A stretch of 24,951 nucleotides of DNA, from IMG/VR virus record IMGVR_UViG_2897333091_000001; one strand, written 5' to 3'. Under the pieces are notes generated by a model. The model was not told where the DNA came from, made no database searches, and worked only from the letters and a program-made list of their open reading frames with translations. The stretch is from a virus (Duplodnaviria; Heunggongvirae; Uroviricota; Caudoviricetes). This document shows positions 1,369 through 24,430 of this stretch, piece after piece. Within the stretch, counting starts at the first letter, position 1. Each line of letters starts with the position of its first letter. Both the position numbers and the translations under genes were made by a program.

Positions 1369-1444
1369 GCCGATATAGCTCAGTTGGTAGAGCAGCGCAT
1401 TCGTAATGCGAAGGTCGTAGGTTCGACTCCTATTATCGGCACCA
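1369..1444 (+). tRNA. thrW: tRNA-Thr, anticodon CGU
   Basis: 76-nt sequence GCCGATATAGCTCAGTTGGTAGAGCAGCGCATTCGTAATGCGAAGGTCGTAGGTTCGACTCCTATTATCGGCACCA with acceptor/D/anticodon/T arms, anticodon loop ..TTCGTAA.., encoded CCA end; matches recalled thrW. Confidence 0.92.
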
Positions 1445-1458
1445 TTTAAATCAATAAG

Positions 1459-2622
1459 TTACACATCATTAGTACCTTCCTTATTTCTTGACTGGGACAA
1501 ATTTGGGACCGATGGGTTCAGAATCGAGTCTATTTGCCGTGCGTGTTCGGTAAGGTGATTAGGTGCGAGGTGAGCATATCGACGAACCATTTCGATAGAC
1601 TCCCAGCCTCCCATTTCCTGTAACACTGATAACGGGACTCCGGCTTGAACCAGCCAACTTGCCCAGGTGTGTCTCAAGTCGTGAAATCTGAAATCATCAA
1701 TACCTGCTCGTCTCAGCGCCGCTTTCCAGGCTGTGTTTGCGTCATACCGCATCTTCCTGACTGTTGGCGCTTTCGTTCCGTCTGGTTTGGTACAGCTTTC
1801 CTTATACACAAATACCCAACGGTGATGATTCCCGATTTGTTTTTTCAATACGCGACATGCAGTATCATTCAGCGCAACGCCAATTGCGCGGTTTGATTTA
1901 CTCTCTTCCGGGTTTATCCATGCCACCCGGCGCTGCATGTCTATTTGTTGCCATTCAAGGTTGATGATGTTCGAGCGTCTTAAGCCTGTTGCAAGTGCAA
2001 ATTCAACAACAGACTTTAATGGCTCCGGACATTCATCAATCAGCCTTTGTGCTTCATGAGGCTCCAGCCAGCGGATCCGTTTATTCTTTGGTTGAGGCAC
2101 TTTAATAATTGGTGCCTTATCCAGCATTTTCCATTCACGCTCTGCGGCTCTTAGCAGGGCCTTTATAAATGAAAGATGCGTAGCCTTCGTTGCAACGGAC
2201 GCTGGTTTTGGCGTGTATTCTGGAACAGGTTTCCCTTTTTTTCTGCATGCTTCTGCCCTGAGTTTCCAGTTTTCCTCATGACGCCGGTTCGTCATTTTCT
2301 GCATTGCTGAATAAATTTTTGATTCAGTAATGTCTCTTAGTTGCATTCCTGCGAAATGTTGAAGCCAGAATCCGATCCGGCTTTTGTCATCGTCCAGTGA
2401 TTTTTTATGTGCTTTCTCTTCAAGCCACCTGACACACGCTTCCTCGAACGTTATATCAGGAATTTCACCAAGTTTGCTGACCCGCCATGCTTCAGCCTTT
2501 AGCTTGTCATGGAGTTCTGTCGCCTGCCTTTTGTCCTTTGTTCCAAGAGACTGTTTAAATCTTTTACCGTTCGGCAATGTGAAACTGGCGTACCATATTT
2601 CACCTCTGCGGAAGAGTGACAT
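1459..2622 (-). CDS. int: Tyrosine recombinase, phage P22-type integrase
   Basis: 387-aa ORF starting [21 protein letters not shown].. with C-terminal catalytic region ..[40 protein letters not shown] (R..H..R..Y); near-identical to recalled P22 Int; stop lies 14 bp from the tRNA 3' end. Confidence 0.92.
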
Positions 2623-2849
2623 TTTCTTTCCTCTGTTATGCCATCACCCGCGCTCACCTGGACAGTATGCAGCGGAGACTGAAGCGCCGCAATGCAGGCT
2701 TGTCGTGTTGTGAGGTAAGGAGATTTATTCTTAGTGGGATCTTTGCGTGTTGCCTGCAGACGCCCTGTGCGTATCCAGTTAATGGCAGTCGGTCTGGATA
2801 TCTTGAGAAAATGACAGGCCTCATCTAGCGTGAGGCTGTATGGCTCCAT
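2499..2849 (-). CDS. xis: Excisionase (P22 Xis-like)
   Basis: 116 aa from the internal ATG at 2849 ([37 protein letters not shown]..), preceded by GAGGTGA SD; start overlaps the stop of the upstream ORF (TAATG); 3' end overlaps int by 124 nt. The longer 144-aa reading from 2933 was rejected. Confidence 0.75.
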
Positions 2850-3154
2850 TATTTCACCTCTTGTTGTGACATTGTTGAAAAATGGATACCTGCTCGTTGC
2901 TGCCAGACGATCCAACCGAGAGTCATATCCCATGCCATGTATTCGTTATCGCCGTTTTTTGCTCTCCGACGATCTACTAAGTCACCGAAACGCTTTTCCA
3001 TGAATAATTCATAAGCTTCGCGTTCATCTGGTTCTACTTCCAGAGATAGGAGTGCGATTTCATAAGCACGGCGCTCAATATCGTCTCGCACGTCAAGGCT
3101 GCTGATACGCTCTTTAATTTCTTTAATCAGTTCTTTGTCGGTAAAAGTGGTCAT
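2849..3154 (-). CDS. Hypothetical phage protein (101 aa), translationally coupled upstream of xis
   Basis: ORF MTTFTDKELIKEIKERISSLDVRDD.. with GGAGG SD; TAATG stop/start overlaps at both ends (3154 and 2849); charged, helical-looking sequence; function not recognised. Confidence 0.5.
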   Translation of the reverse strand: MTTFTDKELIKEIKERISSLDVRDDIERRAYEIALLSLEVEPDEREAYELFMEKRFGDLVDRRRAKNGDNEYMAWDMTLGWIVWQQRAGIHFSTMSQQEVK

Positions 3155-3273
3155 TATGCTCCAGCCTCCGGTGCTTTTGGCATTACTGCCCAGTGAGTGA
3201 TATTGACGTTTTCAAGGTCCCCGACCTGAAATGTCCACTGCCATTCTCCGGTTTCTTTTTGTCCCCAGGTGTA
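3154..3273 (-). CDS. C-terminal fragment of a phage ORF whose 5' part is lost in the scaffold gap
   Basis: Open frame ..YTWGQKETGEWQWTFQVGDLENVNITHWAVMPKAPEAGA* running out of the N-run and ending with a stop that overlaps the start of the 101-aa ORF (TAATG). Confidence 0.3.
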   Translation of the reverse strand, partial: YTWGQKETGEWQWTFQVGDLENVNITHWAVMPKAPEAGA

Positions 3274-3373
3274 NNNNNNNNNNNNNNNNNNNNNNNNNNN
3301 NNNNNNNNNNNNNNNNNNNNNNNNNNNNNNNNNNNNNNNNNNNNNNNNNNNNNNNNNNNNNNNNNNNNNNNNN
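3274..3373. other. Scaffold gap (100 N), unknown true length
   Basis: Run of exactly 100 N; flanking sequences do not overlap; coding frames on both strands run into it. Confidence 0.95.
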
Positions 3374-3374
3374 C

Positions 3375-3548
3375 GAATACATAAACAGTAAGCAATGGCC
3401 TGGTAAAGCGGCGATTGGTCGCCTGAAAGGTGAGGAACTGGCGCAATATAATTTGTGGCTGGATTATCTGGACGCACTGGAACTGGTCGATACTTCCGGT
3501 ACGCCAGATATTGAATGGCCTACGCCTCCGGCAGTTCAGGCCAGATGA
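3375..3548 (+). CDS. tfa: Tail fibre assembly protein, C-terminal fragment (N-terminus in gap)
   Basis: ..NLWLDYLDALELVDTSGTPDIEWPTPPAVQAR* parallels the C-terminus of the minus-strand Tfa (..LDYIDAVTATDTSTAPDVIWPELPEA*); the two genes converge and overlap at 3520..3548, as in Pin/Gin invertible segments. Confidence 0.6.
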   Translation, partial: EYINSKQWPGKAAIGRLKGEELAQYNLWLDYLDALELVDTSGTPDIEWPTPPAVQAR

Positions 3549-4113
3549 CGTCCGGCGCTGTGCTGGTATCTGTTGCCGTCACCGCGTCAATATAATCCAG
3601 CACAGCGTTAAGTCGGGTGTTTTCTGGCTGCGTCAGCTTCCGCCCGGCCTGTAATTTCAGTTGAATCAGACTGATGGAAGCCATTGCAGCATCAATCAGC
3701 GACTGGCGCTGTGCTTCTGCAGCTTCTACTGCGACGCTATGCTGTGCCTCGGTATCCGTCACCCATTTCTCACCATCCCATTTATCGTATGGCGTTAACG
3801 GTGAAAGCGTGACATAACCGTCTTTGATGGCACCGATATAATCCACTGTAACAGCTGCGCCATTTTCAGTTGAGTAAACGGTCTCATTGCGATGGTCTTC
3901 TTCATGGCTCCATCCCTTACCCGTAAATACTGCCACTTTTCCCGGAATGTTTTCGCCCGGGTCAATACCAGTGGAACAGGCGGGCATACTTACGCCAGTA
4001 TTAATATATTCATCAGACCAGCCGGTATATTCATACGTTACTGCATTATAATAAAAACAACGCATATCGCCCGGCACTGTAGCCAGCCCATTTTCATCAA
4101 AAACAGGCTTCAT
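3520..4113 (-). CDS. tfa: Tail fibre assembly protein (TfaE-like)
   Basis: 197-aa ORF MKPVFDENGLATVPGDMRCFYYNAVTYEYTGWSDEYINTGVSMPACSTGIDPGE.., recognised as the e14/lambdoid Tfa family; start overlaps the stop of the upstream tail-fibre segment. Confidence 0.85.
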   Translation of the reverse strand: MKPVFDENGLATVPGDMRCFYYNAVTYEYTGWSDEYINTGVSMPACSTGIDPGENIPGKVAVFTGKGWSHEEDHRNETVYSTENGAAVTVDYIGAIKDGYVTLSPLTPYDKWDGEKWVTDTEAQHSVAVEAAEAQRQSLIDAAMASISLIQLKLQAGRKLTQPENTRLNAVLDYIDAVTATDTSTAPDVIWPELPEA

Positions 4114-4685
4114 TATTTAGCCCTCACCAGAAAGTTAAATGCAATATTTCGTGGACGGGTTTCTGTACCTACATTTCCACTAATTTCACCATAACGTTTA
4201 ACACTACGAGAGCTAAGAGCTCGTAGTGAGGAAGGCACCTTAAGACCGGGTTCGTCCGTTTTAACTATTCCCCCGTCACCATATGTAGCCAGTATTCCTG
4301 GGTTTACTCCTTCCCGTGCACTTCCTGCGGCAAGCCCGTCCCCCGTCCACAATTCCATATTGTGTGCATGATCCATAATTGTGTGTGATTGCCCTGAAAG
4401 TAGGGTACGTCCGACATCAATCCCGCGCCCATCATCCCAGATACGAATGAAATCACCGCGTGCGTCAGGTAATGCCAGCGCCGGAAACACTTTCGCCAGC
4501 ACAGGGTAATCAGTGGCAGAGAATTTCGCGCCGTTGAACTTCAAAAACACCATACCGGACCAGCTATCGATTACGGTATCTGGCATTGCAGCGGACGGCC
4601 AGAAGAACGGAACGCCAATAGCTGGAGCTCCTTCTCCCAAACCAACGTTTATGAAAATGCAGAAATAACGAGCAAATGGCATCAT
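4113..4685 (-). CDS. stf: Tail fibre C-terminal variable segment inside the invertible region; no independent N-terminus in this orientation
   Basis: 190-codon frame ending directly upstream of tfa; its 5' end runs through the putative crossover site, so it is probably expressed only when fused to a constant tail-fibre N-terminus after inversion; the annotated ATG at 4685 is probably not a real start. Confidence 0.65.
   Translation of the reverse strand: MMPFARYFCIFINVGLGEGAPAIGVPFFWPSAAMPDTVIDSWSGMVFLKFNGAKFSATDYPVLAKVFPALALPDARGDFIRIWDDGRGIDVGRTLLSGQSHTIMDHAHNMELWTGDGLAAGSAREGVNPGILATYGDGGIVKTDEPGLKVPSSLRALSSRSVKRYGEISGNVGTETRPRNIAFNFLVRAK
4632..4657. other. Candidate Pin/Gin-type crossover site (imperfect 26-bp dyad)
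   Basis: TTCTCCCAAACCAACGTTTATGAAAA resembles recalled gix/hix sites (TTCCTGTAAACCGAGGTTTTGGATAA / TTCTTGAAAACCAAGGTTTTTGATAA); 55 bp upstream of pin, at the 5' edge of the stf segment. Confidence 0.5.
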
Positions 4686-4711
4686 TCCTGCTTTTGTCAG
4701 GGGGATCTACC

Positions 4712-5266
4712 ATGCTTATTGGCTATGTACGCGTATCAACAAATGACCAGAACACAGATCTACAACGTAATGCGCTGAACTGTGCAGGATGCGAGCTGAT
4801 TTTTGAAGACAAGATAAGCGGTACAAAGTCCGAAAGGCCTGGACTGAAAAAACTGCTCAGGACATTATCGGCAGGTGATACGCTGGTGGTCTGGAAACTG
4901 GACCGACTGGGGCGCAGTATGCGGCATCTGGTCATTCTGGTTGAGGAGTTGCGCGAACGTGGCGTTAATTTTCGCAGCCTGACGGATGCTATTGATACCA
5001 GCACACCGATGGGGCGTTTTTTCTTTCATGTGATGGGTGCCCTGGCTGAAATGGAACGAGAACTGATTGTTGAACGAACAAAAGCTGGACTGGAAGCTGC
5101 TCGCGCACAGGGACGAATTGGTGGACGTCGTCCCAAACTTACACCAGAACAATGGGCGCAGGCCGGGCGATTAATTGCATCAGGCGTTCCTCGCCAGAAG
5201 GTGGCTATTATTTATGATGTTGGTGTGTCAACTTTGTATAAGAGGTTTCCAGCCAGGGTTATATAA
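4712..5266 (+). CDS. pin: Serine recombinase, DNA invertase Pin (Hin/Gin/Cin family)
   Basis: 184 aa from the ATG at 4712 (MLIGYVRVSTNDQNTDLQRNALN.. with catalytic Ser in YVRVS and C-terminal HTH ..GVSTLYKRFPA); AGGGGGA SD; near-identical to recalled e14 Pin. The upstream extension from 4676 was rejected. Confidence 0.93.
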   Translation: MLIGYVRVSTNDQNTDLQRNALNCAGCELIFEDKISGTKSERPGLKKLLRTLSAGDTLVVWKLDRLGRSMRHLVILVEELRERGVNFRSLTDAIDTSTPMGRFFFHVMGALAEMERELIVERTKAGLEAARAQGRIGGRRPKLTPEQWAQAGRLIASGVPRQKVAIIYDVGVSTLYKRFPARVI

Positions 5267-5622: not shown

Positions 5623-5877
5623 ATGGGTAAGATTATTCGGTGGATGCTTTTTTTTGTCGGATTATTTTCCGTTGCATATTCAATATATAAATATCAACAA
5701 TCTCCGCAGAGTTTATTTTACATAATCGGTGCTATAGGAACACTTTTATCTGCTACATGTGGTTTACTTGAGATAAAAAGCAAGAAATCGAATGGCAGTA
5801 TAACTGCTGGTGACAACTCAAATATCGTTGTCATTAATGGTTCAGAAAACACATCAAAAATAAAAAATAGAGGGTGA
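5623..5877 (+). CDS. Small membrane protein (84 aa, two predicted TM helices), function unknown
   Basis: ATG with AGAGG SD 5 nt upstream; hydrophobic stretches WMLFFVGLFSVAYSIY and LFYIIGAIGTLLSATCGLL followed by a polar Ser/Asn-rich tail; very AT-rich; stop sits 2 nt before the next gene's start. Confidence 0.55.
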   Translation: MGKIIRWMLFFVGLFSVAYSIYKYQQSPQSLFYIIGAIGTLLSATCGLLEIKSKKSNGSITAGDNSNIVVINGSENTSKIKNRG

Positions 5878-5879
5878 TT

Positions 5880-6815
5880 ATGTTTGATAAAGAGGTTAAC
5901 TTAGGAGACAACTCAAACGTAGTAAAAACAGAAGGGAATAACAACACAACAATAATAAATAATTTTGATGAGAAGTTTATAGGTCACGTTGTAAGATCCA
6001 TGCTTTATGAAAGTATGCCTTCCTTTCAAGAAGAAGCTAGAAAAAAGATAATTGCGTCAACTGATGAGTACGTTAGAGAGCTAATATCTGAGTTAGTAAT
6101 TCAAAAAACAGATGCAGATACATTAAACCAAAAACTATCAACGCCTGACGTTCAATACTCTCTTTTTGAATCAGCTAAATGTTTTGCAAAGAATCCAGAA
6201 AGAACAGAAAAATCAACTCTGTTAAATTTAGTTGTAAAAAAAATAAATGAATTGGATGGAGATCATGAAGAGCTTTCCTCTATCGATCTGGCAATAAACG
6301 TCGCTACAAAACTTAGCGTAAAGCAAATAAGGTATATAGCTTTAATACACTATATTAAAGATATTGTAAAAATATCACAAGATAGTGCCGGCGCTTATTG
6401 CATAATAGATCCTTCAAAAGATACAACAGAAGAAGTTGACGATTTCTTTTTATTCCCAAATGATATAAAAAGGAACAAACAGGATGTTTATGACCTTTAT
6501 ATCGATCTATATAACAATCAAATGGATGTTGTATTTAAAGATGAAGAGATTGGCCCAATTGATTATAGTATGCTTATAGCGTTGGGTTGTATCATTCAAC
6601 CTGCATTCCCTCAGCCAACATTTGTACAAAATGTAAAGAAAAGAACAGGATTAGATTTAAACGACAGCGAACAAAAATTAAAGCTATCGACATTCATTGA
6701 GAAAATAGAAAAAGCTATAGAGATAGATTCTGTCGATTATATAGTATTAACTACGGTTGGTAGACAAATAGCTAACGCCTATATATCAACAAGAATGAGA
6801 TTAGTTAACTTATAA
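5880..6815 (+). CDS. Hypothetical protein (311 aa from the ATG at 5880), no recognisable family
   Basis: Long ORF in strongly AT-rich DNA; AGAGGG SD 6 nt before the ATG at 5880 (the ORF track starts at GTG 5874); followed by a terminator hairpin; N-terminus shares a GDNSN(I/V)V motif with the tail of the upstream peptide. Confidence 0.65.
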   Translation: MFDKEVNLGDNSNVVKTEGNNNTTIINNFDEKFIGHVVRSMLYESMPSFQEEARKKIIASTDEYVRELISELVIQKTDADTLNQKLSTPDVQYSLFESAKCFAKNPERTEKSTLLNLVVKKINELDGDHEELSSIDLAINVATKLSVKQIRYIALIHYIKDIVKISQDSAGAYCIIDPSKDTTEEVDDFFLFPNDIKRNKQDVYDLYIDLYNNQMDVVFKDEEIGPIDYSMLIALGCIIQPAFPQPTFVQNVKKRTGLDLNDSEQKLKLSTFIEKIEKAIEIDSVDYIVLTTVGRQIANAYISTRMRLVNL

Positions 6816-6836
6816 ATATCTCATATTTCTTCATCC

Positions 6837-6871
6837 AAGGTGGTGGCTTCATCATCCACCGCCTTCTTTTC
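6837..6871 (+). terminator. Rho-independent terminator candidate after the two-gene module
   Basis: AAGGTGGTGG-cttcatcat-CCACCGCCTT stem-loop followed by a T-rich run (CTTTTCT). Confidence 0.5.
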
Positions 6872-7190
6872 TGCTCTTAAGATTAGTGAACAAACCACTC
6901 GTCAGCAAACTCCCAAGTATCTTTCAGAGTCTCCTGAACAAAAGCCTTAGCAGAATCCTTATCTGCGGTGTACGTAACAGTGATGTACGTAACAGGAAAA
7001 TCATCGCTATGGTAGCTTTGACGTTCATCCCCATACCATAAAATATCAAGAGATTACGACTCATTTCCCCATGGCTCTTCACCAACCAACAGTTCTATCA
7101 ACATAAGATGTAAACTCATAAACTAAACAAGATAAAAAAATTAACAGAATTTTGTTGATTTCATGTCTGTGGAGTGTTAACTTAAAATGA

Positions 7191-7210
7191 GACCTGAAGT
7201 ACTGAAGGTC
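7191..7210. promoter_or_regulatory. Imperfect 20-bp palindrome upstream of the XRE gene (candidate operator)
   Basis: GACCTGAAGTACTGAAGGTC (16/20 self-complementary) located 24 bp upstream of the XRE start codon. Confidence 0.4.
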
Positions 7211-7233
7211 TTTGACACACTGGAGAAGCAACT

Positions 7234-7593
7234 ATGTTAACGCCGTTTGGTAAGACAGTAAGAAAAATGCGCATAGACTTAGGGCTTACGCTTAAAAGCA
7301 TGGCTGAGGCTATGGGCATGACCTCGTCTTATCTTTCAGCGATCGAAACTGGTAAAAGGGCAGTCACTAAGCCCGTGCTTGATAGCATCATTAGCTATTT
7401 TAATGCGGATGAAAAACAAAAAGAAAAGCTTATCAGTGCAGCTCGTGACTCTCAGCAGTCAGTAGAGATCAGCTTGTCAGGTAAGAATGGCCACGCTCGT
7501 GAAGTCGCAATTGCGTTCGCTCGTAGTTTTGATGAATTAAATGAAGAAGACTTCCGTAATTTACGACAGATTTTGAATCGAAAACAGCAGTAG
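7234..7593 (+). CDS. XRE-family helix-turn-helix transcriptional regulator
   Basis: 119 aa; N-terminal HTH signature ..LGLTLKSMAEAMGMTSSYLSAIETGKRAVTKPVLDSI..; GGAGA SD; immediately followed by the metallopeptidase gene. Confidence 0.8.
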   Translation: MLTPFGKTVRKMRIDLGLTLKSMAEAMGMTSSYLSAIETGKRAVTKPVLDSIISYFNADEKQKEKLISAARDSQQSVEISLSGKNGHAREVAIAFARSFDELNEEDFRNLRQILNRKQQ

Positions 7594-7601
7594 GAGGCGG
7601 C

Positions 7602-8123
7602 TTGAGCGGACAAGATTATCGTGTACCTCCGCAGAATCGTGAATCAATACGTTCGATCGTCACATCTCTGCGGAGCGCATTTGGTATTACTGGGCTTAAA
7701 TTCCCTGTAATGGAGGTAATTGAGTTCGCATTGCCTCAGTTGATCCCGGATTTTGAGTTCCACATTGGTGGTATGAAAGAAATGGGAGAAACGCATGGTC
7801 TTACGTACCCACAGGAACATTTATTGATTCTGCGCGAAGACATTTACGAAGGCGCTTTGAATGGGGTAGGGCGAGATAGGATGACTGCCGCACATGAATT
7901 GGGTCATCTTCTTATGCACAGGAACATCGCATTTGCTCGTTCTGCCCCAGGGGTAAAAATCCGCCCTTTTGAGAGTAGTGAATGGCAAGCTAAATGTTTT
8001 AGTGGTGAGTTATTAGTGCCAGCTATGCATGCCAGTGTTTTAAAAGGTATGACGGCTGAGGATGTTGCTAAGGCATGCGGAGTTTCATTAGTGGCAGCGC
8101 GTTATCAGCTAGACAGAATGTAA
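7602..8123 (+). CDS. ImmA/IrrE-family (DUF955-like) zinc metallopeptidase domain protein
   Basis: 173 aa with HExxH motif (AAHELGHLLMH); TTG start 4 nt after an AGGAGG that overlaps the XRE stop, so the exact start is uncertain; gene pairing is typical of ImmR/ImmA or CapH/CapP regulator pairs. Confidence 0.78.
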   Translation: MSGQDYRVPPQNRESIRSIVTSLRSAFGITGLKFPVMEVIEFALPQLIPDFEFHIGGMKEMGETHGLTYPQEHLLILREDIYEGALNGVGRDRMTAAHELGHLLMHRNIAFARSAPGVKIRPFESSEWQAKCFSGELLVPAMHASVLKGMTAEDVAKACGVSLVAARYQLDRM

Positions 8124-8126
8124 AAA

Positions 8127-8162
8127 CCCCTTGCTTGGCGCCAACCAGTGCAAGGGGCTTTA
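8127..8162 (+). terminator. Hairpin terminator candidate (weak U tract)
   Basis: CCCCTTGC-15 nt-GCAAGGGG stem directly after the peptidase stop, followed by CTTTA. Confidence 0.4.
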
Positions 8163-8280
8163 GGTGATGAATCCAAGAGGCATCACCACCGTGAACAGCT
8201 TCGATAGACAGCCTGAAATTAACACCTTCAGGGAAGATGTTCAAGGGAAAAATCTCTCTTGGTAAGGAGGTGTTTTATGA

Positions 8281-8430: not shown

Positions 8431-8444
8431 GGGTTAGTATTTAA

Positions 8445-8466
8445 GGCACCTGCGGGTGCCTTTTTT
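8445..8466 (+). terminator. Rho-independent terminator
   Basis: GGCACC-tgcg-GGTGCC stem-loop followed by TTTTTT. Confidence 0.65.
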
Positions 8467-8563
8467 GTATCCTCTGACCCGATTGGTGTCTTGCTGAGCC
8501 TGATAACTACCAATTTTTGTTATTACTATTCTACTATCGCTCAATCATGATTGGCGGGAGTTG

Positions 8564-17680: not shown

Positions 17681-17753
17681 CGTTATCTCTTTCTCATCAT
17701 GCTGAAGAATAAAAATACGGTGTGCGGCGACGGCCGGTGTTAACCGACAGCCC

Positions 17754-18254
17754 TCATTCCAGACGCAGCGAATATGATTGTGTTTTTAACCGTACTGGCG
17801 GCAGTTCCTGTTTTTCATGCAGGCTTTCTGCCAGTTCGTCCGGTGTGACCGGGCGGACAATGAAACGGTTGATGGTCTGAAGCGTTTTAAACACCAGACC
17901 ACAGCCCGGATCCGTGCACACATAAAAACGCTCGGTGACTTCCTGAGACAGACGCCGCGATGTTCTTGACAGTGCAAGGCCTTTACATCTCCGACAACAA
18001 TATCCGGTAACAAGCATTCTTTTCGGGCGTTTCATACTGCCGGAGGCTGACGTCAGTGAATCGCGATATCTCTGTTTGCCTGAAATGTATTCCATTCCTG
18101 AATCTTTACAGTCAGAGAAAAAGCTTTCACTCGCTTCAAATGTCGCAGAGCAATAAATATTCCGGCACTGTGCAATCATTATCTTGGTGCCATCGTCCAT
18201 GAAATGTGCGCGACGGGTGTGAGCAACATGTCCACACGACGGGCAGTAAATCAT
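17754..18254 (-). CDS. delta: P4 Delta-like late transcription activator (two tandem Ogr-type zinc-finger units)
   Basis: 166 aa; MIYCPSCGHVAHTRRAHFMDDGTKIMIAQCRNIYCSATF.. and a second unit ..YCCRRCKGLALSRTSRRLSQEVTERFYVCTDPGCGLVF..; ATGA overlap with the sid stop. Confidence 0.88.
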   Translation of the reverse strand: MIYCPSCGHVAHTRRAHFMDDGTKIMIAQCRNIYCSATFEASESFFSDCKDSGMEYISGKQRYRDSLTSASGSMKRPKRMLVTGYCCRRCKGLALSRTSRRLSQEVTERFYVCTDPGCGLVFKTLQTINRFIVRPVTPDELAESLHEKQELPPVRLKTQSYSLRLE

Positions 18255-18985
18255 GACAGCAGTCCTCTGGCCTTAAGCTCTGCTCCCTGCTGGTCTATTT
18301 TGTCCTGCCACACCTTGCGCTGTGCCGGTGTGCCTGCCACCTCATAATCCATGTGCGGAAGTGTTGCCGCTGACAGTCCGGTCAGCCGGAGAACCGGCTC
18401 GCCGGTGAGGCTGATTTGCATCTGTTTTATTTTCTGTTCCAGCGATGATTTCACCTGCTGCATGACAGCTTTATCGGGTGCGACGTAGCCCTGATGCCCG
18501 GTGGTGTTGGCGAGCGGATTTTCCTGTACCTGGATGCTCAGATGCATTGCCCGGACAAGCGCCTCACAGGTTTCATTCAGGGCGTGTTCCAGCTCATGCT
18601 CTGCATACAGACTCAGCAGGTGATGATGTGCCTTCCGGTAGGCGGTGGCCGTGCTGTCACACGCCCCTTTCAGGCGTTCGCGTTCAAAATTCAGCACCAC
18701 GGCCAGATTGTCATATTCCTGTACCAGCTCCCGGCGTGCCACGCGCTCAATGTGGCGCTGTTTCAGCTCGTCGCTCAGGACACCACCGGCTGCACGAAAG
18801 GCCGTGCGCCAGTCGTCAGCGTCGTTTCCGTCGGCCTGCGCCAGCGCATTTTTTTCCTGCTCTGCCCGTTCAATGGCCGTAACGGTCTCATCCATCAGGC
18901 GGGCGTTCTCAAGATGGGCGGCTCTGGACTTTTCCAGTTGTGCCAGTGCGGGTTGCAGATATTCAGGGATGGTGTTGTCAGACAT
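18251..18985 (-). CDS. sid: P4 Sid-like capsid size determination protein
   Basis: 244 aa from the ATG at 18985 (MSDNTIPEYLQPALAQLEK..), matching the recalled length and N-terminus of P4 Sid; GAGGAG SD. The ORF track starts 18 nt upstream at a GTG (19003), which I consider less likely. Confidence 0.85.
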   Translation of the reverse strand: MSDNTIPEYLQPALAQLEKSRAAHLENARLMDETVTAIERAEQEKNALAQADGNDADDWRTAFRAAGGVLSDELKQRHIERVARRELVQEYDNLAVVLNFERERLKGACDSTATAYRKAHHHLLSLYAEHELEHALNETCEALVRAMHLSIQVQENPLANTTGHQGYVAPDKAVMQQVKSSLEQKIKQMQISLTGEPVLRLTGLSAATLPHMDYEVAGTPAQRKVWQDKIDQQGAELKARGLLS

Positions 18986-19057
18986 TTTCCGGCTCCTCGT
19001 CACTTCAGGTTAAGAAAATTGTGACGTACACCGGACAACAACACGACGCATTGCAGA

Positions 19058-19075
19058 TGTGCCAGCCCTGACACA
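19058..19075 (-). promoter_or_regulatory. Ogr/Delta-responsive late-promoter dyad (TGT-N12-ACA) upstream of sid
   Basis: TGTGCCAGCCCTGACACA lies about 70 bp upstream of the sid start codon, the position and pattern expected for P2/P4 late promoters such as Psid. Confidence 0.6.
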
Positions 19076-19154
19076 GGAGACTCATCCTCAGACCGGCAAG
19101 CCAGGAAAAGGTCGCAGGAAAAACCGGCTTACTGTTTGTTTTTTTATATTTTAC

Positions 19155-19258
19155 TGTTCACCTCTGTTCACCTTAATAAAAAAGATAAGTAATACAGTAA
19201 GTTAAATGGTGAACAATCGCAGTAATGACTGTTCACCGTCTGTTCACCACTGTTCACC
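19155..19258. repeat. Iteron cluster, six copies of TGTTCACC (five direct, one inverted); P4 ori-like
   Basis: TGTTCACC at 19155, 19165, 19230, 19241 and 19251, with GGTGAACA at 19208; this octamer is the alpha-protein binding iteron of P4 ori/crr as I recall. Confidence 0.6.
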
Positions 19259-19537
19259 CGCTCATGGACTTTTTGTGCTGTTTATTACTGTTTGTTTTTA
19301 TTAATTCGCCGGGAATGAATAAGAAAAAACGATTTGTATTTCACTATAAAAATTACGAATTGCTTTAAGTGGCTTTAAATGACTTTAAGTGGAGATGAAC
19401 AAAAAATACACAAGCATTGTAAGGCTGCCGGAACAAATCCCCCCTGTTGCGTCTGCTGAAAATATTCACAAAATAAAGCGCTACCCGAAGCCGGACGGAC
19501 TTATCCGGTGCTGTATGGACATTAACGAGGTAGCCCG

Positions 19538-19804
19538 ATGCAAGCTGTTTTTTCTTCCCCGTCTCCCGCCCCTGTGACGCCACTGATGCCGCTGCCGGAC
19601 ATCACACAGGAGCGTTTTTTACGTCTTCCGGAAGTGATGCACCTGTGCGGCCTGTCACGCTCGACCATCTATGAACTCATCCGTAAGGGGGAATTTCCGC
19701 CGCAGGTGAGTCTTGGCGGTAAAAATGTGGCCTGGCTGCACTCTGAAGTCACCGCATGGATGGCCGGGCGCATTGCCGGACGCAAACGGGGGTACGACGC
19801 ATGA
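19538..19804 (+). CDS. AlpA/Vis-family small DNA-binding regulator (excision/transcription control)
   Basis: 88 aa; core ..[50 protein letters not shown].. is typical of AlpA/Vis HTH proteins; GAGG SD 7 nt upstream; an alternative internal start at 19586 is possible. Confidence 0.75.
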
Positions 19805-20202
19805 TGATGCCTGTTCTGCAAAAACTTCCTTTTTCTGGCTTGCCTTTTTCCGGCATTTGCGGATATAGTTTTTCCGCTGCCGCAAAATCGGCAGCCGGGC
19901 GTGGAAACCCGAGTATGTTATCGGCGACATATGACGCGCCATGCGTCTTTTTTTGTGTCGCAATCAACGCCACAGAGCGCCAGATTATGGTGTGGTGTGT
20001 GGTCAGTCGAGCAAATGGCACTCCGTGCATTCTGCCCGCGTCCGCTCATTATACCGCAGAGTCAATGGTAGCTCAGGCGGGGCAGCCTCCGGGCTGGCCG
20101 GTTTCCGATAACGCCGGTATTTCCACCCCCGTCTGGGCTATCGCCATCGAGCGTGGAAACTCCGGCGATAGCGTCATTTACGCTGTTATCGGAGGTTGCC
20201 TT

Positions 20203-20400
20203 ATGGCTACGACCCTTACCCCCTCACACCCTGAATTTGTCTTTGTGTTTGCGGCTGTCCGTCGCACAGACCGTCATCCCCGTATCTGTATGCTTCGCAC
20301 CGTCGCCGGTGATGAACGCAGCGCCCGCCGTTCCCTTGTCCGTGACTATGTGCTCTCCCTTGCTGCCCGTCTGCCGGTGGTGGAGGTGTCCCGTGCGTAA
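20203..20400 (+). CDS. Hypothetical small protein (65 aa)
   Basis: ATG with GGAGG SD; [65 protein letters not shown]; the longer upstream extension of this frame (from 19756/19801) looks non-protein-like. Confidence 0.35.
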
Positions 20401-20680
20401 TAAAAAAGCCCCTCAGACCGTCTCAGCACGTCATGACGCCCGTGAACACCTCAGCATTGAGGCTTACCATAAGCTCAACCGCGCCAGCGCCGTATCCCAG
20501 TTTGTTGGGGGTGATTTGATTCACCGTGAACTCTCCGGCCTGCATCAGCTCTACATTCCGCATATTTTCAGCTACCTGAATGAAGATATTGATTTTGTGC
20601 TGAATGAGCTGAAAGCCAAAGGCCTGTGCCGCGATTTTCTCGCCCAGCAGAAAGACCGGGGAGACAGGACGCATGTTTGA
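20393..20680 (+). CDS. Hypothetical P4-like early-region protein (95 aa, GTG start)
   Basis: GTG preceded by GGAGGTG SD; ..[65 protein letters not shown]..; overlaps neighbouring genes by a few nt at both ends; the N-terminal extension from 20153 was rejected. Confidence 0.45.
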
Positions 20681-21128
20681 TTTTCCCCAGCCCGGTGAGA
20701 TTTACCGTTCTGCCGGTTTTCCCGATGTGGCCGTGGTCGGCATTCTGGAAGACGGTATTCCGTGGGAAATGCCGTACCGCTGCCCGGACATTGTCTGGAA
20801 CCCGTACCGCCGTAAATTCAGTATCCTTGTGCGTATCCTCGCTGACGGGCGCACCACAGACATCCCGCTGGGGCGTTTTCTGCGGGAATTTACCTGTGAC
20901 CGTCCTGACCTGTTTAAACGCAGCCCCGTAAACCGGCATGCGGTACTGAAAGAAATGGCCGGAGACCCGGAATTACAGAAATGGCGGGAGAAATATCTGG
21001 ATATTTACCCGCAGGACACTGTTCCGGTCAGCCGGGCGGCACCGGTGGCGCGGGAATGGCGGGAAATTCCCCGCACGGAGCCTGACCCGGAAATCACCCC
21101 GGATAACAGTTACCGCAATTATCTGTAA
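20673..21128 (+). CDS. Hypothetical P4-like early-region protein (151 aa)
   Basis: ATG with GGAGACAGG SD; protein-like composition; size and position match the 151-codon ORF upstream of alpha in P4 as I recall it. Confidence 0.55.
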   Translation: MFDFPQPGEIYRSAGFPDVAVVGILEDGIPWEMPYRCPDIVWNPYRRKFSILVRILADGRTTDIPLGRFLREFTCDRPDLFKRSPVNRHAVLKEMAGDPELQKWREKYLDIYPQDTVPVSRAAPVAREWREIPRTEPDPEITPDNSYRNYL

Positions 21129-21263
21129 TTAAAAAACGACACCCGAAAAATTAAATGTGCGTATTCGCGCAGGGATACGCACGTCTTCAGGAGACGCAGA
21201 TATGCCTTATCAGTTAATGCAACCGGCACGGAATGCAGTCATCTGTCACAGGGAGGAAAACAA

Positions 21264-21584
21264 ATGAAAACACCCTTACCGCCCGTCTTACGCGCTGCCC
21301 TTTACCGTCGCGCTGTCGCCTGTGCCTGGCTGACCGTGTGCGAACGTCAGCACCGCTACCCGCATCTCACCCTTGAGTCACTGGAAGCGGCCATCGCCGC
21401 TGAGCTGGAAGGCTTTTATCTGCGCCAGCACGGTGAGGAAAAAGGGCGTCAGATAGCCTGTGCCCTGCTGGAAGATTTAATGGAATCCGGCCCCCTGAAG
21501 GCCGCGCCGTCGCTGTCCTTTCTCGGGCTGGTTGTGATGGATGAACTCTGTGCCCGTCACATAAAAGCGCCGGTACTGCACTGA
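21264..21584 (+). CDS. Hypothetical P4-like early-region protein (106 aa)
   Basis: Strong GGGAGG SD 4 nt before the ATG; ends 14 bp before the primase start. Confidence 0.6.
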
Positions 21585-21598
21585 AGGAGAACAACACC

Positions 21599-23932
21599 AT
21601 GAAAATGAACGTAACCGCCACCGTCAGCCATGCGCTCGGCCACTGGCCGCGTATTCTCCCGGCGCTGGGGATTCAGGTGCTGAAAAACCGTCATCAGCCC
21701 TGTCCGGTCTGTGGCGGGAGTGACCGCTTCCGTTTTGATGACAGGGAGGGGCGCGGCACCTGGTACTGCAATCAGTGTGGTGCCGGTGACGGCCTGAAAC
21801 TGGTTGAAAAGGTGTTTGGTGTCTCCCCGTCCGACGCGGCCGCAAAGGTGGCTGCCGTGACCGGCAGCCTGCCCCCGGCTGACCCGGCAGTGACGGCTGC
21901 CGCCGGTGCTGAAACAGACGCTGCCCGGAAGAACGCCGCCGCACTGGCACAAACCCTGATGGCGAAAACCCGTCCCGGAACCGGTAACGCCTACCTGACC
22001 CGCAAGGGCTTTCCCGGCCGGGAATGCCGGATGCTGACCGGCACACACAGAGCCGGTGGCGTGAGCTGGCGTGCCGGTGACCTTGTGGTGCCACTGTATG
22101 ACGACAGCGGCGAACTGGTTAACCTTCAGTTAATCAGTGCTGACGGCCGTAAGCGCACCCTGAAAGGCGGACAGGTCAGGGGCACCTGTCACACCCTTGA
22201 AGGACAGAATCAGGCCGGAAAACGTCTGTGGATAGCGGAGGGATACGCGACCGCACTTACCGTGCATCACCTGACCGGTGAAACGGTGATGGTGGCGCTT
22301 TCTTCCGTGAACCTCCTTTCTCTGGCCAGCCTTGCCCGGCAGAAGCATCCGGCCTGTCAGATTGTCCTTGCCGCAGACCGTGACCTCAGCGGTGACGGCC
22401 AGAAAAAAGCCGCCGCAGCCGCAGATGCGTGTGAAGGTGTTGTTGCCCTGCCGCCGGTCTTCGGTGACTGGAATGATGCCTTCACGCAGTACGGCGGGGA
22501 GGCCACCCGTAAGGCCATTTACGATGCCATCCGGCCACCGGCTGAAAGCCCGTTCGACACCATGAGTGAAGCGGAGTTTTCCGCCATGAGTACCAGCGAA
22601 AAGGCCATGCGTATCTATGGGCATTACGGCGAGGCGCTCGCGGTCGATGCCAACGGCCAGCTTCTGTCCCGTTATGAAAATGGTGTCTGGAAGGTGCTGC
22701 CACCACAGGACTTTGCCCGGGATGTGGCCGGGCTGTTTCAGCGTCTGCGCGCGCCGTTCTCCTCCGGGAAGGTGGCCTCCGTGGTGGACACCCTGAAGCT
22801 GATTATTCCGCAGCAGGAAGCCCCCTCCCGCCGCCTGATTGGCTTTCGTAACGGCGTGCTCGACACGCAGAACGGCACGTTCCACCCGCACAGTCCGTCA
22901 CACTGGATGCGCACCCTGTGCGATGTGGATTTCACCCCGCCGGTGGACGGTGAAACGCTGGAGACCCACGCCCCCGCGTTCTGGTGCTGGCTTGACCGTG
23001 CCGCCGGTGGCCGTGCGGAAAAACGCGACGTGATTCTGGCCGCACTGTTTATGGTGCTGGCAAACCGCTACGACTGGCAGCTCTTTCTGGAGGTGACCGG
23101 TCCCGGCGGCAGCGGCAAAAGTATCATGGCCGAAATCGCCACCCTGCTGGCCGGGGAGGATAACGCCACGTCGGCCACCATCGAGACGCTGGAATCCCCG
23201 CGTGAACGTGCCGCGTTAACTGGCTTCTCACTGATACGCCTGCCGGACCAGGAAAAATGGAGCGGCGACGGTGCCGGACTCAAGGCCATCACCGGCGGTG
23301 ATGCGGTGTCCGTTGACCCGAAATACCGGGATGCGTACTCCACGCATATCCCGGCGGTGATTCTGGCCGTGAACAATAACCCGATGCGCTTCACCGACCG
23401 CAGCGGCGGCGTGTCACGCCGGCGGGTGATTATTCACTTCCCGGAACAGATAGCCCCGCAGGAGCGCGACCCGCAGCTTAAGGACAAAATCACCCGCGAG
23501 CTGGCGGTCATCGTGCGTCACCTGATGCAGAAATTCAGCGACCCGATGCTCGCCCGGTCACTGCTTCAGTCCCAGCAGAACTCAGACGAGGCGCTGAACA
23601 TCAAACGGGATGCCGACCCGACGTTTGATTTTATCGGCTATCTGGAAACCCTGCCGCAGACCAGCGGCATGTATATGGGGAACGCCAGTATCATCCCGCG
23701 CAATTACCGTAAATACCTCTATCACGCCTATCTGGCCTACATGGAGGCAAACGGCTACCGGAATGTACTCAGTCTGAAAATGTTCGGGCTGGGGCTGCCG
23801 GTGATGCTGAAGGAATACGGACTGAATTACGAGAAGCGCCATACCAAACAGGGGATACAGACCAACCTGACGCTGAAAGAGGAAAGCTACGGCGACTGGC
23901 TGCCAAAATGTGACGCCCCTGCAACAACCTGA
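21599..23932 (+). CDS. alpha: P4 alpha-type primase/helicase (zinc-binding primase N-terminus, Toprim, C-terminal P-loop NTPase)
   Basis: 777 aa; N-terminal ..HQPCPVCGGSDRFRFDDREGRGTWYCNQCG.. zinc motif; Walker A EVTGPGGSGKS; AAGGAG SD; same length as recalled P4 alpha. Confidence 0.9.
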   Translation: MKMNVTATVSHALGHWPRILPALGIQVLKNRHQPCPVCGGSDRFRFDDREGRGTWYCNQCGAGDGLKLVEKVFGVSPSDAAAKVAAVTGSLPPADPAVTAAAGAETDAARKNAAALAQTLMAKTRPGTGNAYLTRKGFPGRECRMLTGTHRAGGVSWRAGDLVVPLYDDSGELVNLQLISADGRKRTLKGGQVRGTCHTLEGQNQAGKRLWIAEGYATALTVHHLTGETVMVALSSVNLLSLASLARQKHPACQIVLAADRDLSGDGQKKAAAAADACEGVVALPPVFGDWNDAFTQYGGEATRKAIYDAIRPPAESPFDTMSEAEFSAMSTSEKAMRIYGHYGEALAVDANGQLLSRYENGVWKVLPPQDFARDVAGLFQRLRAPFSSGKVASVVDTLKLIIPQQEAPSRRLIGFRNGVLDTQNGTFHPHSPSHWMRTLCDVDFTPPVDGETLETHAPAFWCWLDRAAGGRAEKRDVILAALFMVLANRYDWQLFLEVTGPGGSGKSIMAEIATLLAGEDNATSATIETLESPRERAALTGFSLIRLPDQEKWSGDGAGLKAITGGDAVSVDPKYRDAYSTHIPAVILAVNNNPMRFTDRSGGVSRRRVIIHFPEQIAPQERDPQLKDKITRELAVIVRHLMQKFSDPMLARSLLQSQQNSDEALNIKRDADPTFDFIGYLETLPQTSGMYMGNASIIPRNYRKYLYHAYLAYMEANGYRNVLSLKMFGLGLPVMLKEYGLNYEKRHTKQGIQTNLTLKEESYGDWLPKCDAPATT

Positions 23933-23939
23933 CCCACCT

Positions 23940-23966
23940 GACCGGCATCTGCCGGTCTTTTTTTTA
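23940..23966 (+). terminator. Rho-independent terminator after alpha
   Basis: GACCGGC-atct-GCCGGTC stem-loop followed by a run of nine T. Confidence 0.7.
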
Positions 23967-23992
23967 TCCCGACATCCCCCGAAGGTAAACAA

Positions 23993-24290
23993 TCCAGTGT
24001 TCACCCTTTACCGTATATTCACCCGTTATCATACTGAAATTAAAAGAGAAAAACGAAAGGTGAACAGTGTGAACAATCAAATCAAAAAAAACTTTTTTCT
24101 TCCTGAGTGATTTCAGTACGGGGGATTAATCACCGGTATGAGTCACACCGGCAGAATGCCGGAGGTGAAGAATCGAATGTTCACCCTTCACCCATTATTC
24201 ACCACCTATCATGCTGAAATAAAAGGAGAAAACAGAAAGGTGAACAGTGTGAACAGTTCTTTCGAAAAAAAACTTTTTTCTTATTTTTAA
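23993..24290. repeat. crr-like region: two direct repeats of about 120 bp, each with TGTTCACC-type iterons
   Basis: 23993..24110 and 24171..24290 align along their length (..GTGTTCACCCTT..ATTCACC..ATCATACTGAAAT.AAAAG.GAAAA.CGAAAGGTGAACAGTGTGAACA..AAAAAAACTTTTTTCTT); matches the recalled architecture of the P4 cis replication region. Confidence 0.65.
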
Positions 24291-24392
24291 TTGTGCGAAA
24301 AACAAGCGACGCACGCAGTGTGTATAGATATGTGTATAGTTATATTTTTTGAATATTATAATCTATTATAAATCAATGTGTTAACTTGTAAT

Positions 24393-24430
24393 GTTCATTC
24401 CTATTATCGCACCATTAAAATCAAAGAGTT
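24393..24430 (+). repeat. Degenerate third copy of the thrW 3' end plus flank (probable right att junction of element 2)
   Basis: GTTCATTCCTATTATCGCACCATTAAAATCAAAGAGTT aligns with the tRNA 3' end and its downstream flank at 1421..1460 (GTTCGACTCCTATTATCGGCACCATTTAAATCAATAAGTT) with two small indels and a few substitutions. Confidence 0.55.

What the first reader, a model, noticed from the sequence alone, without database searches (positions are those of the whole stretch)
1369..24430. Tandem accretion of two integrative elements at thrW, marked by three att copies of differing integrity
An intact tRNA at 1369..1444, a perfect 46-bp copy of its 3' end at 12088..12133 and a degenerate copy with similar downstream flank at 24393..24430 partition the window into a P22-type-integrase element and a P4-like satellite. 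Each integrase lies next to an att copy. The perfect repeat suggests the P22-type element inserted more recently into a site already occupied by the satellite, whose own right junction has decayed.
Basis: partly seen in the sequence, partly recalled or inferred. Interest (0 to 1): 0.6.

Follow-up and report, generated by a model that had tools for sequence, protein, structure and literature searches.

The report
Prophage remnant plus P4 satellite at thrW
Two unrelated mobile elements, a decayed Shigella-SfIV/P22-type prophage and a phage-P4 satellite carrying a Gabija defence system, sit one behind the other in the E. coli threonine tRNA gene thrW; this layout is real but ordinary and was already described in E. 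coli O157:H7.

Summary
thrW is intact at 1369-1444. Its last 46 nt (47 with the next T) recur perfectly at 12088-12134. A short third copy lies at 24398-24415 and is followed by the native thrW downstream flank. In 948 of 5426 complete E. coli genomes that flank follows thrW directly, so about 23 kb is inserted DNA.

- **Element 1 (1445-12087):** a deletion remnant of an SfIV/SfII-like prophage. Its Int is 99.7% identical to SfIV Int and about 90% to P22-like Int. It also has Xis, an invertible tail-fibre segment, a Pin invertase and cargo of unknown function.
- **Element 2 (12135-24397):** phage P4 itself at 97.8% DNA identity from cos to crr, but with a different, thrW-specific integrase (38% identical to P4 Int) and Gabija in the psu-int hotspot.

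Each element occurs alone at thrW in other strains. The same junction occurs in 325 genomes, including O157:H7 (Sp1-Sp2), and the reverse order occurs in 10.

The third copy is not decayed: its 1-nt gap is the normal right junction of this satellite family in many genera. Repeat perfection does not date insertion, and the order remains unresolved. The window also contains two 100-N runs.

The arrangement is already known, so interest is low.

The parts
1..1254 (+). proA, the left chromosomal flank
   Evidence: Pfam Aldedh. 99.4-99.9% identical to annotated E. coli proA.
1369..1444 (+). thrW, an intact tRNA-Thr(CGU). Its 3' 46 nt plus the next T (1399-1445) form att copy 1, the attL of the SfIV/P22-type element.
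1459..2622 (-). Tyrosine integrase of the SfIV/SfII/SfV/P22 family, 387 aa and full length
   Evidence: 99.7% identical to SfIV Int, 99.2% to SfII, 98.2% to SfV and 89.9% to ST64T and other P22-like phages. Pfam Phage_integrase.
2499..2933 (-). Excisionase. The ORF as listed is 144 aa; the family match covers residues 29-144.
   Evidence: PHROG 2907 excisionase, E 1e-50. HTH_17.
2849..3273 (-). Early-left genes, yfdT-like and the start of yfdS-like, cut off by the N run
   Evidence: 98.8% identical to the int-xis-yfdT-yfdS stretch of strains 3359 and GF66.2.
3274..3373 (.). Run of 100 N, either a gap or a mask. It hides the deletion junction of the prophage remnant, so the true size of element 1 is unknown.
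3374..4685 (-). Invertible tail-fibre segment: a tfa' fragment on the plus strand (3374-3548), tail-fibre assembly gene 3520-4113 and tail-fibre C-terminal exon 4113-4685 on the minus strand
   Evidence: Pfam Caudo_TAP and Collar. Same layout in annotated relatives.
4676..5266 (+). Pin/Hin-type serine DNA invertase (pinE-like)
   Evidence: Pfam Resolvase plus HTH_7. Annotated as pinE in relatives.
5623..11104 (.). Phage cargo of unknown function: an 84-aa membrane peptide, a 313-aa LPO_1073/Vpar_1526 family protein, a CapH/CapP-like HTH plus M78 peptidase pair (7234-8123), and a 456-aa coiled-coil membrane protein (9734-11104, minus strand)
   Evidence: The block is 99.8% identical in full-length thrW prophages.
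11827..12087 (+). Right (P) arm of the SfIV/P22-type element
   Evidence: 95.8-99.97% identical to the sequence left of attR in phage-only or remnant-only strains.
12088..12134 (+). att copy 2: attR of the phage remnant and at the same time attL of the satellite. It is a perfect 47-nt copy of the thrW 3' end.
   Evidence: From 12088 onward the sequence is 100% identical to thrW plus satellite in the satellite-only strain HUM3355.
12245..13471 (+). P4-type tyrosine integrase with an arm-binding domain, specific for thrW. The arm-type repeats TGTGTATA(G/T)(G/A) lie at 12246-12296.
   Evidence: Pfam Arm-DNA-bind_3, Phage_int_M and Phage_integrase. 38% identical to P4 Int. Repeat motif found 4 times where 0.19 is expected, only in the two satellite arms.
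13472..16907 (+). Gabija defence system in the P4 psu-int hotspot: gajA 13472-15288, interrupted only by the N run 13641-13740, and gajB 15285-16907
   Evidence: PADLOC GajA E 1.7e-234 and GajB E 3.7e-224. Pfam AAA_15, OLD-like TOPRIM and UvrD. The N run is flanked by the same 16 nt and relatives read straight through.
16944..24278 (.). P4 backbone from cos to crr: psu 17108-17680(-), delta 17754-18254(-), sid 18251-19003(-), ori iterons about 19155-19251, vis/alpA 19538-19804(+), CI/C4 immunity RNA region 19863-20148(+), epsilon, orf151, orf106, alpha primase-helicase 21599-23932(+), and crr (2 x 120 nt) 23979-24278
   Evidence: 97.8% DNA identity to P4 NC_001609 over 7337 nt, with proteins 92.6-100% identical. 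Pfam, Rfam C4, isrK and c4-a1b1, repeat D2.
24279..24397 (+). Left (P) arm of the satellite attachment site, with arm-type repeats at 24319-24340
   Evidence: Not homologous to P4 beyond crr.
24398..24415 (+). att copy 3, the attR of the satellite: TTCCTATTATCG-CACCAT
   Evidence: Matches to other genomes break exactly at 24415-24416. The same form is conserved in other genera.
24416..24951 (.). Native chromosomal flank of thrW, with the truncated LysR-type gene yagP (24541-24951, minus strand)
   Evidence: Follows thrW directly in 948 genomes. Same sequence to the right of CP4-6 in K-12. Pfam LysR_substrate.

Best explanation
This is a tandem array of two independent site-specific integrative elements in the E. 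coli tRNA gene thrW.

Element 1 (1445-12087) is a deletion remnant of an SfIV/SfII/SfV-like temperate phage. Its P22-family integrase recombines a 46-nt attP core with the 3' end of thrW. That rebuilds the tRNA at the left junction (copy 1) and leaves a full 46-47-nt duplicate at the right junction (copy 2).

Element 2 (12135-24397) is phage satellite P4 with two modules exchanged. It has a thrW-specific P4-type integrase and attachment site in place of the leuX-specific one, and Gabija in place of gop-beta-cII in the psu-int hotspot.

The satellite's attachment site shares only TCCTATTATCG and, after a built-in 1-nt gap, GCACCAT with thrW. The left junction carries the tRNA-type bases on the 5' side of that gap and the right junction carries the satellite-type bases. 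Strand exchange must therefore lie within the last 7 nt, GCACCAT. The right junction (copy 3) is thus 'born' looking degenerate.

Copy 2 serves as the right end of the phage remnant and the left end of the satellite, so each element could in principle excise on its own with its own Int (plus Xis or Vis).

Shown here: the anatomy, the junction sequences, the empty site and the single-occupancy states. Inferred: the position of strand exchange, present-day excision competence and the order of arrival. I regard the order as unresolved, with a modest lean to 'satellite first, phage second at the intact tRNA'.
For: - **att copies and chance:**
- **Empty site:** 948 of 5426 genomes, which fixes the outer boundaries at 1445 and 24415.
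- **Satellite alone at thrW:** 120 genomes, with sequence identical from 12088 onward.
- **Phage or remnant alone:** same P arm, 46-nt copy and native flank.
- **Same phage-arm to satellite-int junction:** 325 genomes, including O157:H7 and strain a7, which has a full-length phage.
- **Integrase and att of element 1:** Int 99.7% identical to SfIV Int; a 46-bp attP is reported for SfIV, SfI and SfV (PMC3851460).
- **Identity of element 2:** P4 at 97.8% DNA identity, Int only 38% identical; C4/CI RNA, crr and iterons; Gabija; psu-int hotspot (PMC9122126).
- **Satellite arm repeats:** found only in the two satellite arms.
- **Gap form of copy 3:** conserved across genera and at satellite-satellite junctions.
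Against: - Nothing contradicts the tandem-array reading.
- The window contains two 100-N runs. The true size of element 1 and the integrity of gajA are therefore unknown, and the link between 1-3273 and 3374 onward rests on the deposited assembly (CP028307.1).
- Two satellite right junctions carry GG instead of the gap form (SC467, L082), so the attachment site is polymorphic or the exchange model is incomplete.
- One Buttiauxella MAG has the gap form inside the tRNA itself (L020).
- In O157 Sakai neither Sp1 nor Sp2 was seen to circularise (PMC2669165), so excision competence cannot be assumed.
Confidence: 0.9

Rival explanations
1. One reading: the satellite occupied thrW first. The SfIV/P22-type phage then integrated into the rebuilt, intact thrW on its left and afterwards lost most of its genome by deletion.
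For: - SfI integrated at the attL (intact thrW) of resident SfX, upstream of it, in the converted lysogen and in 24 serotype X isolates (PMC3306764).
- The same Gabija-P4 is found alone at thrW in many strains, 100% identical from 12088 to 13640.
- The remnant's right 7.5 kb is 99.84% identical to full-length phages now circulating in other strains.
- In GF66.2 an intact P22-like phage lies on the tRNA side of an older remnant.
Against: - The final structure is identical under the opposite order.
- Repeat perfection carries no dating signal.
- The phage is the more decayed of the two elements.
Confidence: 0.5
2. Reverse order: the phage was resident first. The P4 satellite later used the phage's attR (copy 2, which contains the complete satellite target) as its attB.
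For: - Use of a resident prophage's attR as attB is documented (Sp10 next to Rac, PMC2669165).
- Copy 2 contains the whole CTCCTATTATCGGCACCAT target.
- Phage-only strains with the same right arm and native flank exist, up to 99.97% identical (L135; strain 3359).
- The phage-to-satellite junction is common and occurs with different satellites (325 genomes; L140).
Against: - Where the order was followed experimentally at thrW, newcomers went to the tRNA side.
- Ten genomes with the satellite on the tRNA side of a P22-type int relic show that the satellite can take the intact tRNA even when a phage relic is present.
Confidence: 0.35
3. The array was assembled or transferred by homologous recombination between strains (import of a whole thrW region), not by two integration events in this lineage.
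For: The tandem junction is widespread (325 genomes), and the flanking proA and yagP-pao genes provide long homology. The remnant is a mosaic whose parts occur in other prophages.
Against: There is no direct evidence. It only moves the two integration events into another lineage.
Confidence: 0.1
4. The third copy is a chance similarity, or the arrangement is an assembly artefact.
For: The third copy is short and has a gap, and the record has N runs.
Against: - The 11-mer is expected 0.01 times and is found 3 times, all in the same orientation.
- The native flank begins exactly after it.
- Homology to other genomes breaks exactly there.
- The same junction occurs in complete genomes.
- Both internal junctions lie inside uninterrupted sequence.
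Confidence: 0.02

Closest known systems
Sp1-Sp2 of E. coli O157:H7 Sakai (CP-933H / CP-933I of EDL933; that correspondence is from memory)
   Same: Same site and same architecture: thrW, then a severely degraded prophage with a P22-type int, tail-fibre/tfa/pinE segment and cargo, then a perfect 46-nt att copy, then a P4-like satellite with defence cargo between int and psu, then the gap-form att copy, then the native flank (on an O157:H7 genome; att sequences). Sp1 is listed as degraded and Sp2 as P4-like in PMC2669165.
   Different: Different cargo in both elements: GIY-YIG and AraC in Sp1, and an ABC-three-component-type system in Sp2 instead of Gabija. The junction is only 92.6% identical. 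The O157 int is truncated in the strain inspected. Sp1 and Sp2 did not circularise in Sakai.
Tandem SfI-SfX lysogens of Shigella flexneri (PMC3306764)
   Same: Two thrW-integrating elements stacked between proA and the right flank, with att copies at each junction. The integrase family is the same as element 1 (SfI Int 99.0% identical).
   Different: There both elements are full phages, and the order of arrival was observed directly. Here one partner is a satellite with an unrelated integrase and a much shorter core.
Phage satellite P4 (NC_001609)
   Same: 97.8% DNA identity from cos through psu, delta, sid, the immunity region, epsilon and alpha to crr. The gene order is the same and alpha is 777 aa.
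   Different: Int is only 38% identical, the attachment site targets thrW rather than leuX, and Gabija replaces gop-beta-cII.
CP4-6 cryptic prophage of E. coli K-12
   Same: It occupies the same thrW site and is bounded by thrW and a perfect copy of its 3' end, followed by the same native flank and yagP.
   Different: It is an unrelated 34-kb element with a different integrase (intF at the far end) and a longer identity block of about 60 nt.

Membership tests
att-bounded integrative elements in tandem at a tRNA gene | Intact tRNA at one end and direct repeats of its 3' end at every junction, all in one orientation | tested here: met
att-bounded integrative elements in tandem at a tRNA gene | An unoccupied allele exists in which the tRNA is followed directly by the sequence found after the last repeat | tested here: met
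   948 of 5426 genomes, up to 99.8% identity to the composite query.
att-bounded integrative elements in tandem at a tRNA gene | Each element is found alone at the site with the same junctions | tested here: met
   Satellite alone in 120 genomes. Phage or remnant alone in strain 3359 and L135.
att-bounded integrative elements in tandem at a tRNA gene | Each element excises separately as a circle | not testable with these tools
   Needs junction PCR. Sp1 and Sp2 were negative in O157 Sakai (PMC2669165).
SfV/SfIV/P22-type thrW-integrating temperate phage | Integrase of that family, with xis beside it and its 3' end next to attL | tested here: met
   99.7% identical to SfIV Int and 89.9% to P22-like Int. 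Excisionase PHROG. The int stop codon begins 15 nt after thrW.
SfV/SfIV/P22-type thrW-integrating temperate phage | 46-bp core identical to the thrW 3' end at both prophage ends | tested here: met
   47 of 47 nt. A 46-bp attP is reported in PMC3851460.
SfV/SfIV/P22-type thrW-integrating temperate phage | Complete phage genome with replication, lysis, head and tail modules | tested here: not met
   Only int, xis, two early genes, the tail-fibre tip, pin and cargo are present. Full-length relatives are shown. The element is a remnant, with the deletion junction hidden in the N run.
P4-like phage satellite | Core genes psu, delta, sid, epsilon, alpha and a P4-type integrase, in P4 order | tested here: met
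   Proteins other than Int are 92.6-100% identical to P4.
P4-like phage satellite | cis elements: cos, ori iterons, crr (2 x 120 bp) and the CI/C4 immunity RNA | tested here: met
   Homology to P4 starts at its right cos end. crr is repeat D2. TGTTCACC iterons. Rfam C4, isrK and c4-a1b1.
P4-like phage satellite | Variable defence cargo between psu/cos and int | tested here: met
   Gabija at 13472-16907. Hotspot described in PMC9122126.
P4-like phage satellite | Mobilisation by a P2-like helper | not testable with these tools
   The window holds no P2-like genes, and the rest of the genome was not examined.
Gabija defence system | Adjacent gajA (ATPase plus OLD-type TOPRIM) and gajB (UvrD-like helicase) | tested here: met
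   PADLOC E 1.7e-234 and 3.7e-224. Pfam.
Gabija defence system | Uninterrupted gajA reading frame | tested here: inconclusive
   A 100-N run at 13641-13740 is flanked by a 16-nt duplication, while relatives are continuous.

The most novel reading that the evidence does not exclude
The thrW-specific P4-type integrase family uses an attachment site that differs from the tRNA by a built-in 1-nt deletion just 5' of a 7-nt exchange region (GCACCAT) at the very end of the gene. Integration then always restores thrW but leaves a right junction that can no longer be used by 46-nt-core (P22/SfV-type) integrases. That asymmetry would force later arrivals to stack on the tRNA side and so impose an ordering rule on thrW arrays. 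Separately, the pin-to-attR cargo (LPO_1073-family protein, a CapH/CapP-like pair and a 456-aa membrane coiled-coil protein) could be undescribed anti-phage genes.
Probability: 0.25. Interest if true: 0.35.

Novelty: already known. Interest (0 to 1): 0.15.

Why it matters
This is mainly a correct annotation. It shows that 23 kb between proA/thrW and yagP is two stacked mobile elements rather than one island, and it assigns each att copy to its element. It also places a Gabija system on a near-identical copy of P4.

The useful corrections are general ones. A short, gapped att copy next to a tRNA-targeting satellite need not be decay, and att-repeat perfection is not a clock for insertion order. 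Nothing here changes current understanding: thrW is a known integration hotspot, tandem thrW lysogens have been made in the laboratory, and the same remnant-plus-P4-like array has been described in O157:H7.

Tried and rejected
1. I looked for the whole window in 5426 complete RefSeq E. coli genomes. None covers 80% or more. The exact source turned up only through an exact-protein look-up (GenBank CP028307.1) and is not in the annotated collection.
2. I first read the split gajA as a pseudogene. I rejected that because the split coincides with a 100-N run flanked by a 16-nt duplication.
3. I first read the ORF at 24541-24951 as paoC, from a hit table. It is the truncated LysR gene yagP.
4. I tried to infer insertion order from junction sequences. 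Both orders predict identical junctions, so no signal is available.
5. I tried to use the G/GG state of copy 3 as a shared-descent marker. I dropped this when the gap form proved to be the family norm across genera.
6. I tried to recognise satellites in other genera by P4 iterons. Only the Escherichia locus has them, so I used alpha-primase tblastn instead. Most 8-kb loci were too short to include alpha.
7. A literature search for LPO_1073 found nothing.
8. One paper reading failed on a term that was too short and was repeated.
Full report
**1. The observation**

ARAGORN finds a single tRNA, Thr(CGT), at 1369-1444. It lies just after proA (Pfam Aldedh), as thrW does in K-12.

The last 46 nt of the gene plus the following T (1399-1445) recur without a mismatch at 12088-12134.

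A third, shorter copy lies at 24398-24415. It reads TTCCTATTATCG-CACCAT against CTCCTATTATCGGCACCAT in thrW. The 11-mer TCCTATTATCG occurs three times in the window, all on the + strand, where 0.01 is expected.

The window is 100% identical, N runs included, to GenBank CP028307.1.

**2. The outer boundaries**

I joined window 1195-1444 to 24415-24664 and searched with the composite. It matches end to end in 948 of 5426 complete E. coli genomes, at up to 99.8% identity. The sequence after the third copy is therefore the native thrW downstream flank, and everything from 1445 to 24414 is inserted DNA.

The same flank follows the right-hand att copy of CP4-6 in K-12.

The first 20 nt or so of the phage arm next to thrW (TTTAAATCAATAAGTTAC) resemble the native trailer (TTAAAATCAAAGAGTTAC). 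The CP4-6 arm resembles it too, but the satellite arm (TCTCAACTTCCCC) does not.

**3. Element 1 (1445-12087)**

- The 387-aa integrase is 99.7% identical to Shigella phage SfIV Int, 99.2% to SfII, 99.0% to SfI, 98.2% to SfV, and 89.9% to P22-like Salmonella phages.
- These phages integrate in thrW through a 46-bp attP (PMC3851460; PMC3306764).
- An excisionase and two early genes follow.
- After the first N run the sequence resumes in an invertible tail-fibre segment, with a Pin invertase and about 6.5 kb of cargo.
- Replication, lysis, head and tail genes are absent, so this is a deletion remnant. Its deletion junction is hidden in the N run.
- Its right 7.5 kb is 99.84% identical to the corresponding end of full-length Mu-tail-type prophages in other strains. 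The same kind of phage sits full-length in front of the same satellite in strain a7.

**4. Element 2 (12135-24397)**

- From 16944 to 24278 it is 97.8% identical at the DNA level to phage P4, from cos to crr. Psu, Delta, Sid, Vis, Epsilon, orf151, orf106 and Alpha are 92.6-100% identical.
- Rfam finds the C4/CI immunity RNA and its targets. The two 120-nt crr repeats and the TGTTCACC iterons are present.
- Two modules differ from P4. The integrase is only 38% identical to P4 Int. The psu-int hotspot (PMC9122126) carries gajA-gajB (PADLOC E 1.7e-234 and 3.7e-224).
- gajA looks split only because of the second N run, which is flanked by the same 16 nt on both sides. Relatives read straight through.
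- The motif TGTGTATA(G/T)(G/A) occurs four times where 0.19 is expected, only just inside copy 2 and just before copy 3, with a fifth near-match beside the last. This is what arm-type integrase sites of a single attachment site would look like.

**5. Population states**

| State at thrW | Genomes or examples |
|---|---|
| Empty site | 948 genomes |
| thrW followed directly by this satellite arm and int | 120 genomes; 100% identical over window 12088-13640 in HUM3355 |
| Phage or remnant alone, same right arm, 46-nt copy and native flank | strain 3359, L135 |
| Phage arm, 46-nt copy, P4-type int (the window's junction) | 325 genomes, including O157:H7 |
| Reverse order: satellite, att, relic of the P22-type int | 10 genomes |
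| Intact P22-like phage in front of a remnant | GF66.2 |

In O157:H7 the layout corresponds to the degraded Sp1 and the P4-like Sp2 of the Sakai strain (PMC2669165). thrW is one of the most used tDNA integration sites in E. coli (PMC7545054).

**6. The third copy is not decayed**

- The same gap form, TTCCTATTATCG-CACCA, ends the unrelated Sp2-type satellite in O157 on a different flank allele.
- A scan of one genome per species shows the gap form at about 28 att-like sites in Enterobacterales, against about 5 sites with GG. The genera include Citrobacter, Enterobacter, Kosakonia, Leclercia, Cedecea, Kluyvera, Atlantibacter, Pectobacterium and Brenneria, and the flanks are unrelated.
- Seven of these sites have an alpha primase gene directly upstream within the stretch fetched.
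- In four viral contigs the junction between a satellite and a following satellite arm is the gap form in 4 of 4 cases.

In every E. coli case the tRNA-side junction has the tRNA-type bases (C...GG) and the far junction has the satellite-type bases (T...G). Both share GCACCAT before diverging. Strand exchange must therefore lie within those 7 nt. This is an inference from the junction sequences.

Exceptions exist. Two junctions have GG (SC467; L082). One Buttiauxella MAG has the gap form inside the tRNA (L020).

**7. Order of arrival**

"Satellite first, phage into the intact tRNA" and "phage first, satellite into the phage's attR" both give exactly the observed junctions.

Repeat perfection is uninformative. 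The decayed O157 remnant has a perfect copy 2, while strain a7, with a full-length phage, has a 1-nt deletion in it.

Experimental precedent exists for both routes. SfI integrated at the attL of resident SfX, in the converted lysogen and in 24 serotype X isolates. Sp10 used the attR of Rac.

**8. Verdict**

The "decayed junction" and "perfect repeat means recent" inferences are not supported.

The arrangement is a further instance of a described one: Sp1-Sp2 in O157, tandem Sf lysogens, and P4-like satellites with defence hotspots at tRNA genes. Interest is low.

Excision of either element was not testable here. Sp1 and Sp2 did not circularise in Sakai.

Noticed in passing
window 3274-3373 and 13641-13740: There are two runs of exactly 100 N, also present in the source record CP028307.1. 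The second is flanked on both sides by GAATTAGATCTAGAAC and makes gajA look split. The first hides the junction between the early genes and the tail-fibre segment of the prophage remnant.
   Followed up: partly
window 5623-8123: Cargo directly after the Pin invertase: an 84-aa membrane peptide, a 313-aa LPO_1073/Vpar_1526 family protein of unknown function, then a CapH/CapP-like HTH plus M78-peptidase regulator pair. It is a possible undescribed defence or moron cassette. No literature was found on LPO_1073.
   Followed up: partly
window 9734-11104 (minus strand): An AT-rich gene for a 456-aa protein with long coiled coils and C-terminal membrane segments. It has only weak similarity to DruC/ZorA models and no family assignment. 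The identical protein is indexed in 119 blocks of the assembly collection; in most of the eight places inspected it lies at the right end of a thrW-type prophage or remnant.
   Followed up: partly
region between pinE and attR in related loci L004, L006, L007 and hits H31, H33: The stretch between pin and the right att site differs from strain to strain: OLD-type nuclease, LEM-3-like GIY-YIG, DUF262, DGQHR/HNH/FRG, AraC. It behaves like a variable cargo or defence hotspot of thrW prophages.
   Followed up: no
window 5266-5424 vs 8564-8723, and 8855-9021 vs 9321-9488: Imperfect direct repeats (82-100% identity) bracket blocks of the cargo. The sequence right after pinE in strain 3359 resembles both copies to a similar degree (about 94-95%). 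This suggests cassette insertion or duplication by recombination.
   Followed up: no
window 12245-13471 and 24279-24415 vs P4: The satellite is P4 at about 98% identity except for the int plus attachment-site module (Int 38% identical) and the hotspot cargo. The Vis excision factor is still P4's (98.9% identical), so it is unclear whether it matches the swapped att and int.
   Followed up: partly
locus L020 (Buttiauxella MAG), L001 14778-14796 (SC467), L082: These are exceptions to the att pattern. One tRNA-Thr-like gene carries the satellite-type gapped 3' end, and two satellite right junctions have GG instead of the gap. Both GG junctions are followed by another element.
   Followed up: no
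locus L006 16272-16289 (strain a7): The middle att copy between a full-length phage and the same Gabija-P4 has a 1-nt deletion (ACTC-TATTATCGG), whereas decayed remnants keep perfect copies.
   Followed up: yes
loci L134, L136, L139, L141 (about 12384-12400 in the reverse-complement orientation used; 9427-9443 in L139, 7466-7482 in L141): In strains lacking the pao operon, the phage attR copy has two substitutions (GGTCGGAGG, TCCTCTTATC) and a different flank leading to yagU. This is a truly diverged att copy at this site.
   Followed up: no
window 24541-24951 (minus strand): yagP is only a C-terminal LysR substrate-binding fragment, as in K-12 and most relatives. It is a long-standing pseudogene at the right border of the thrW hotspot.
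   Followed up: no
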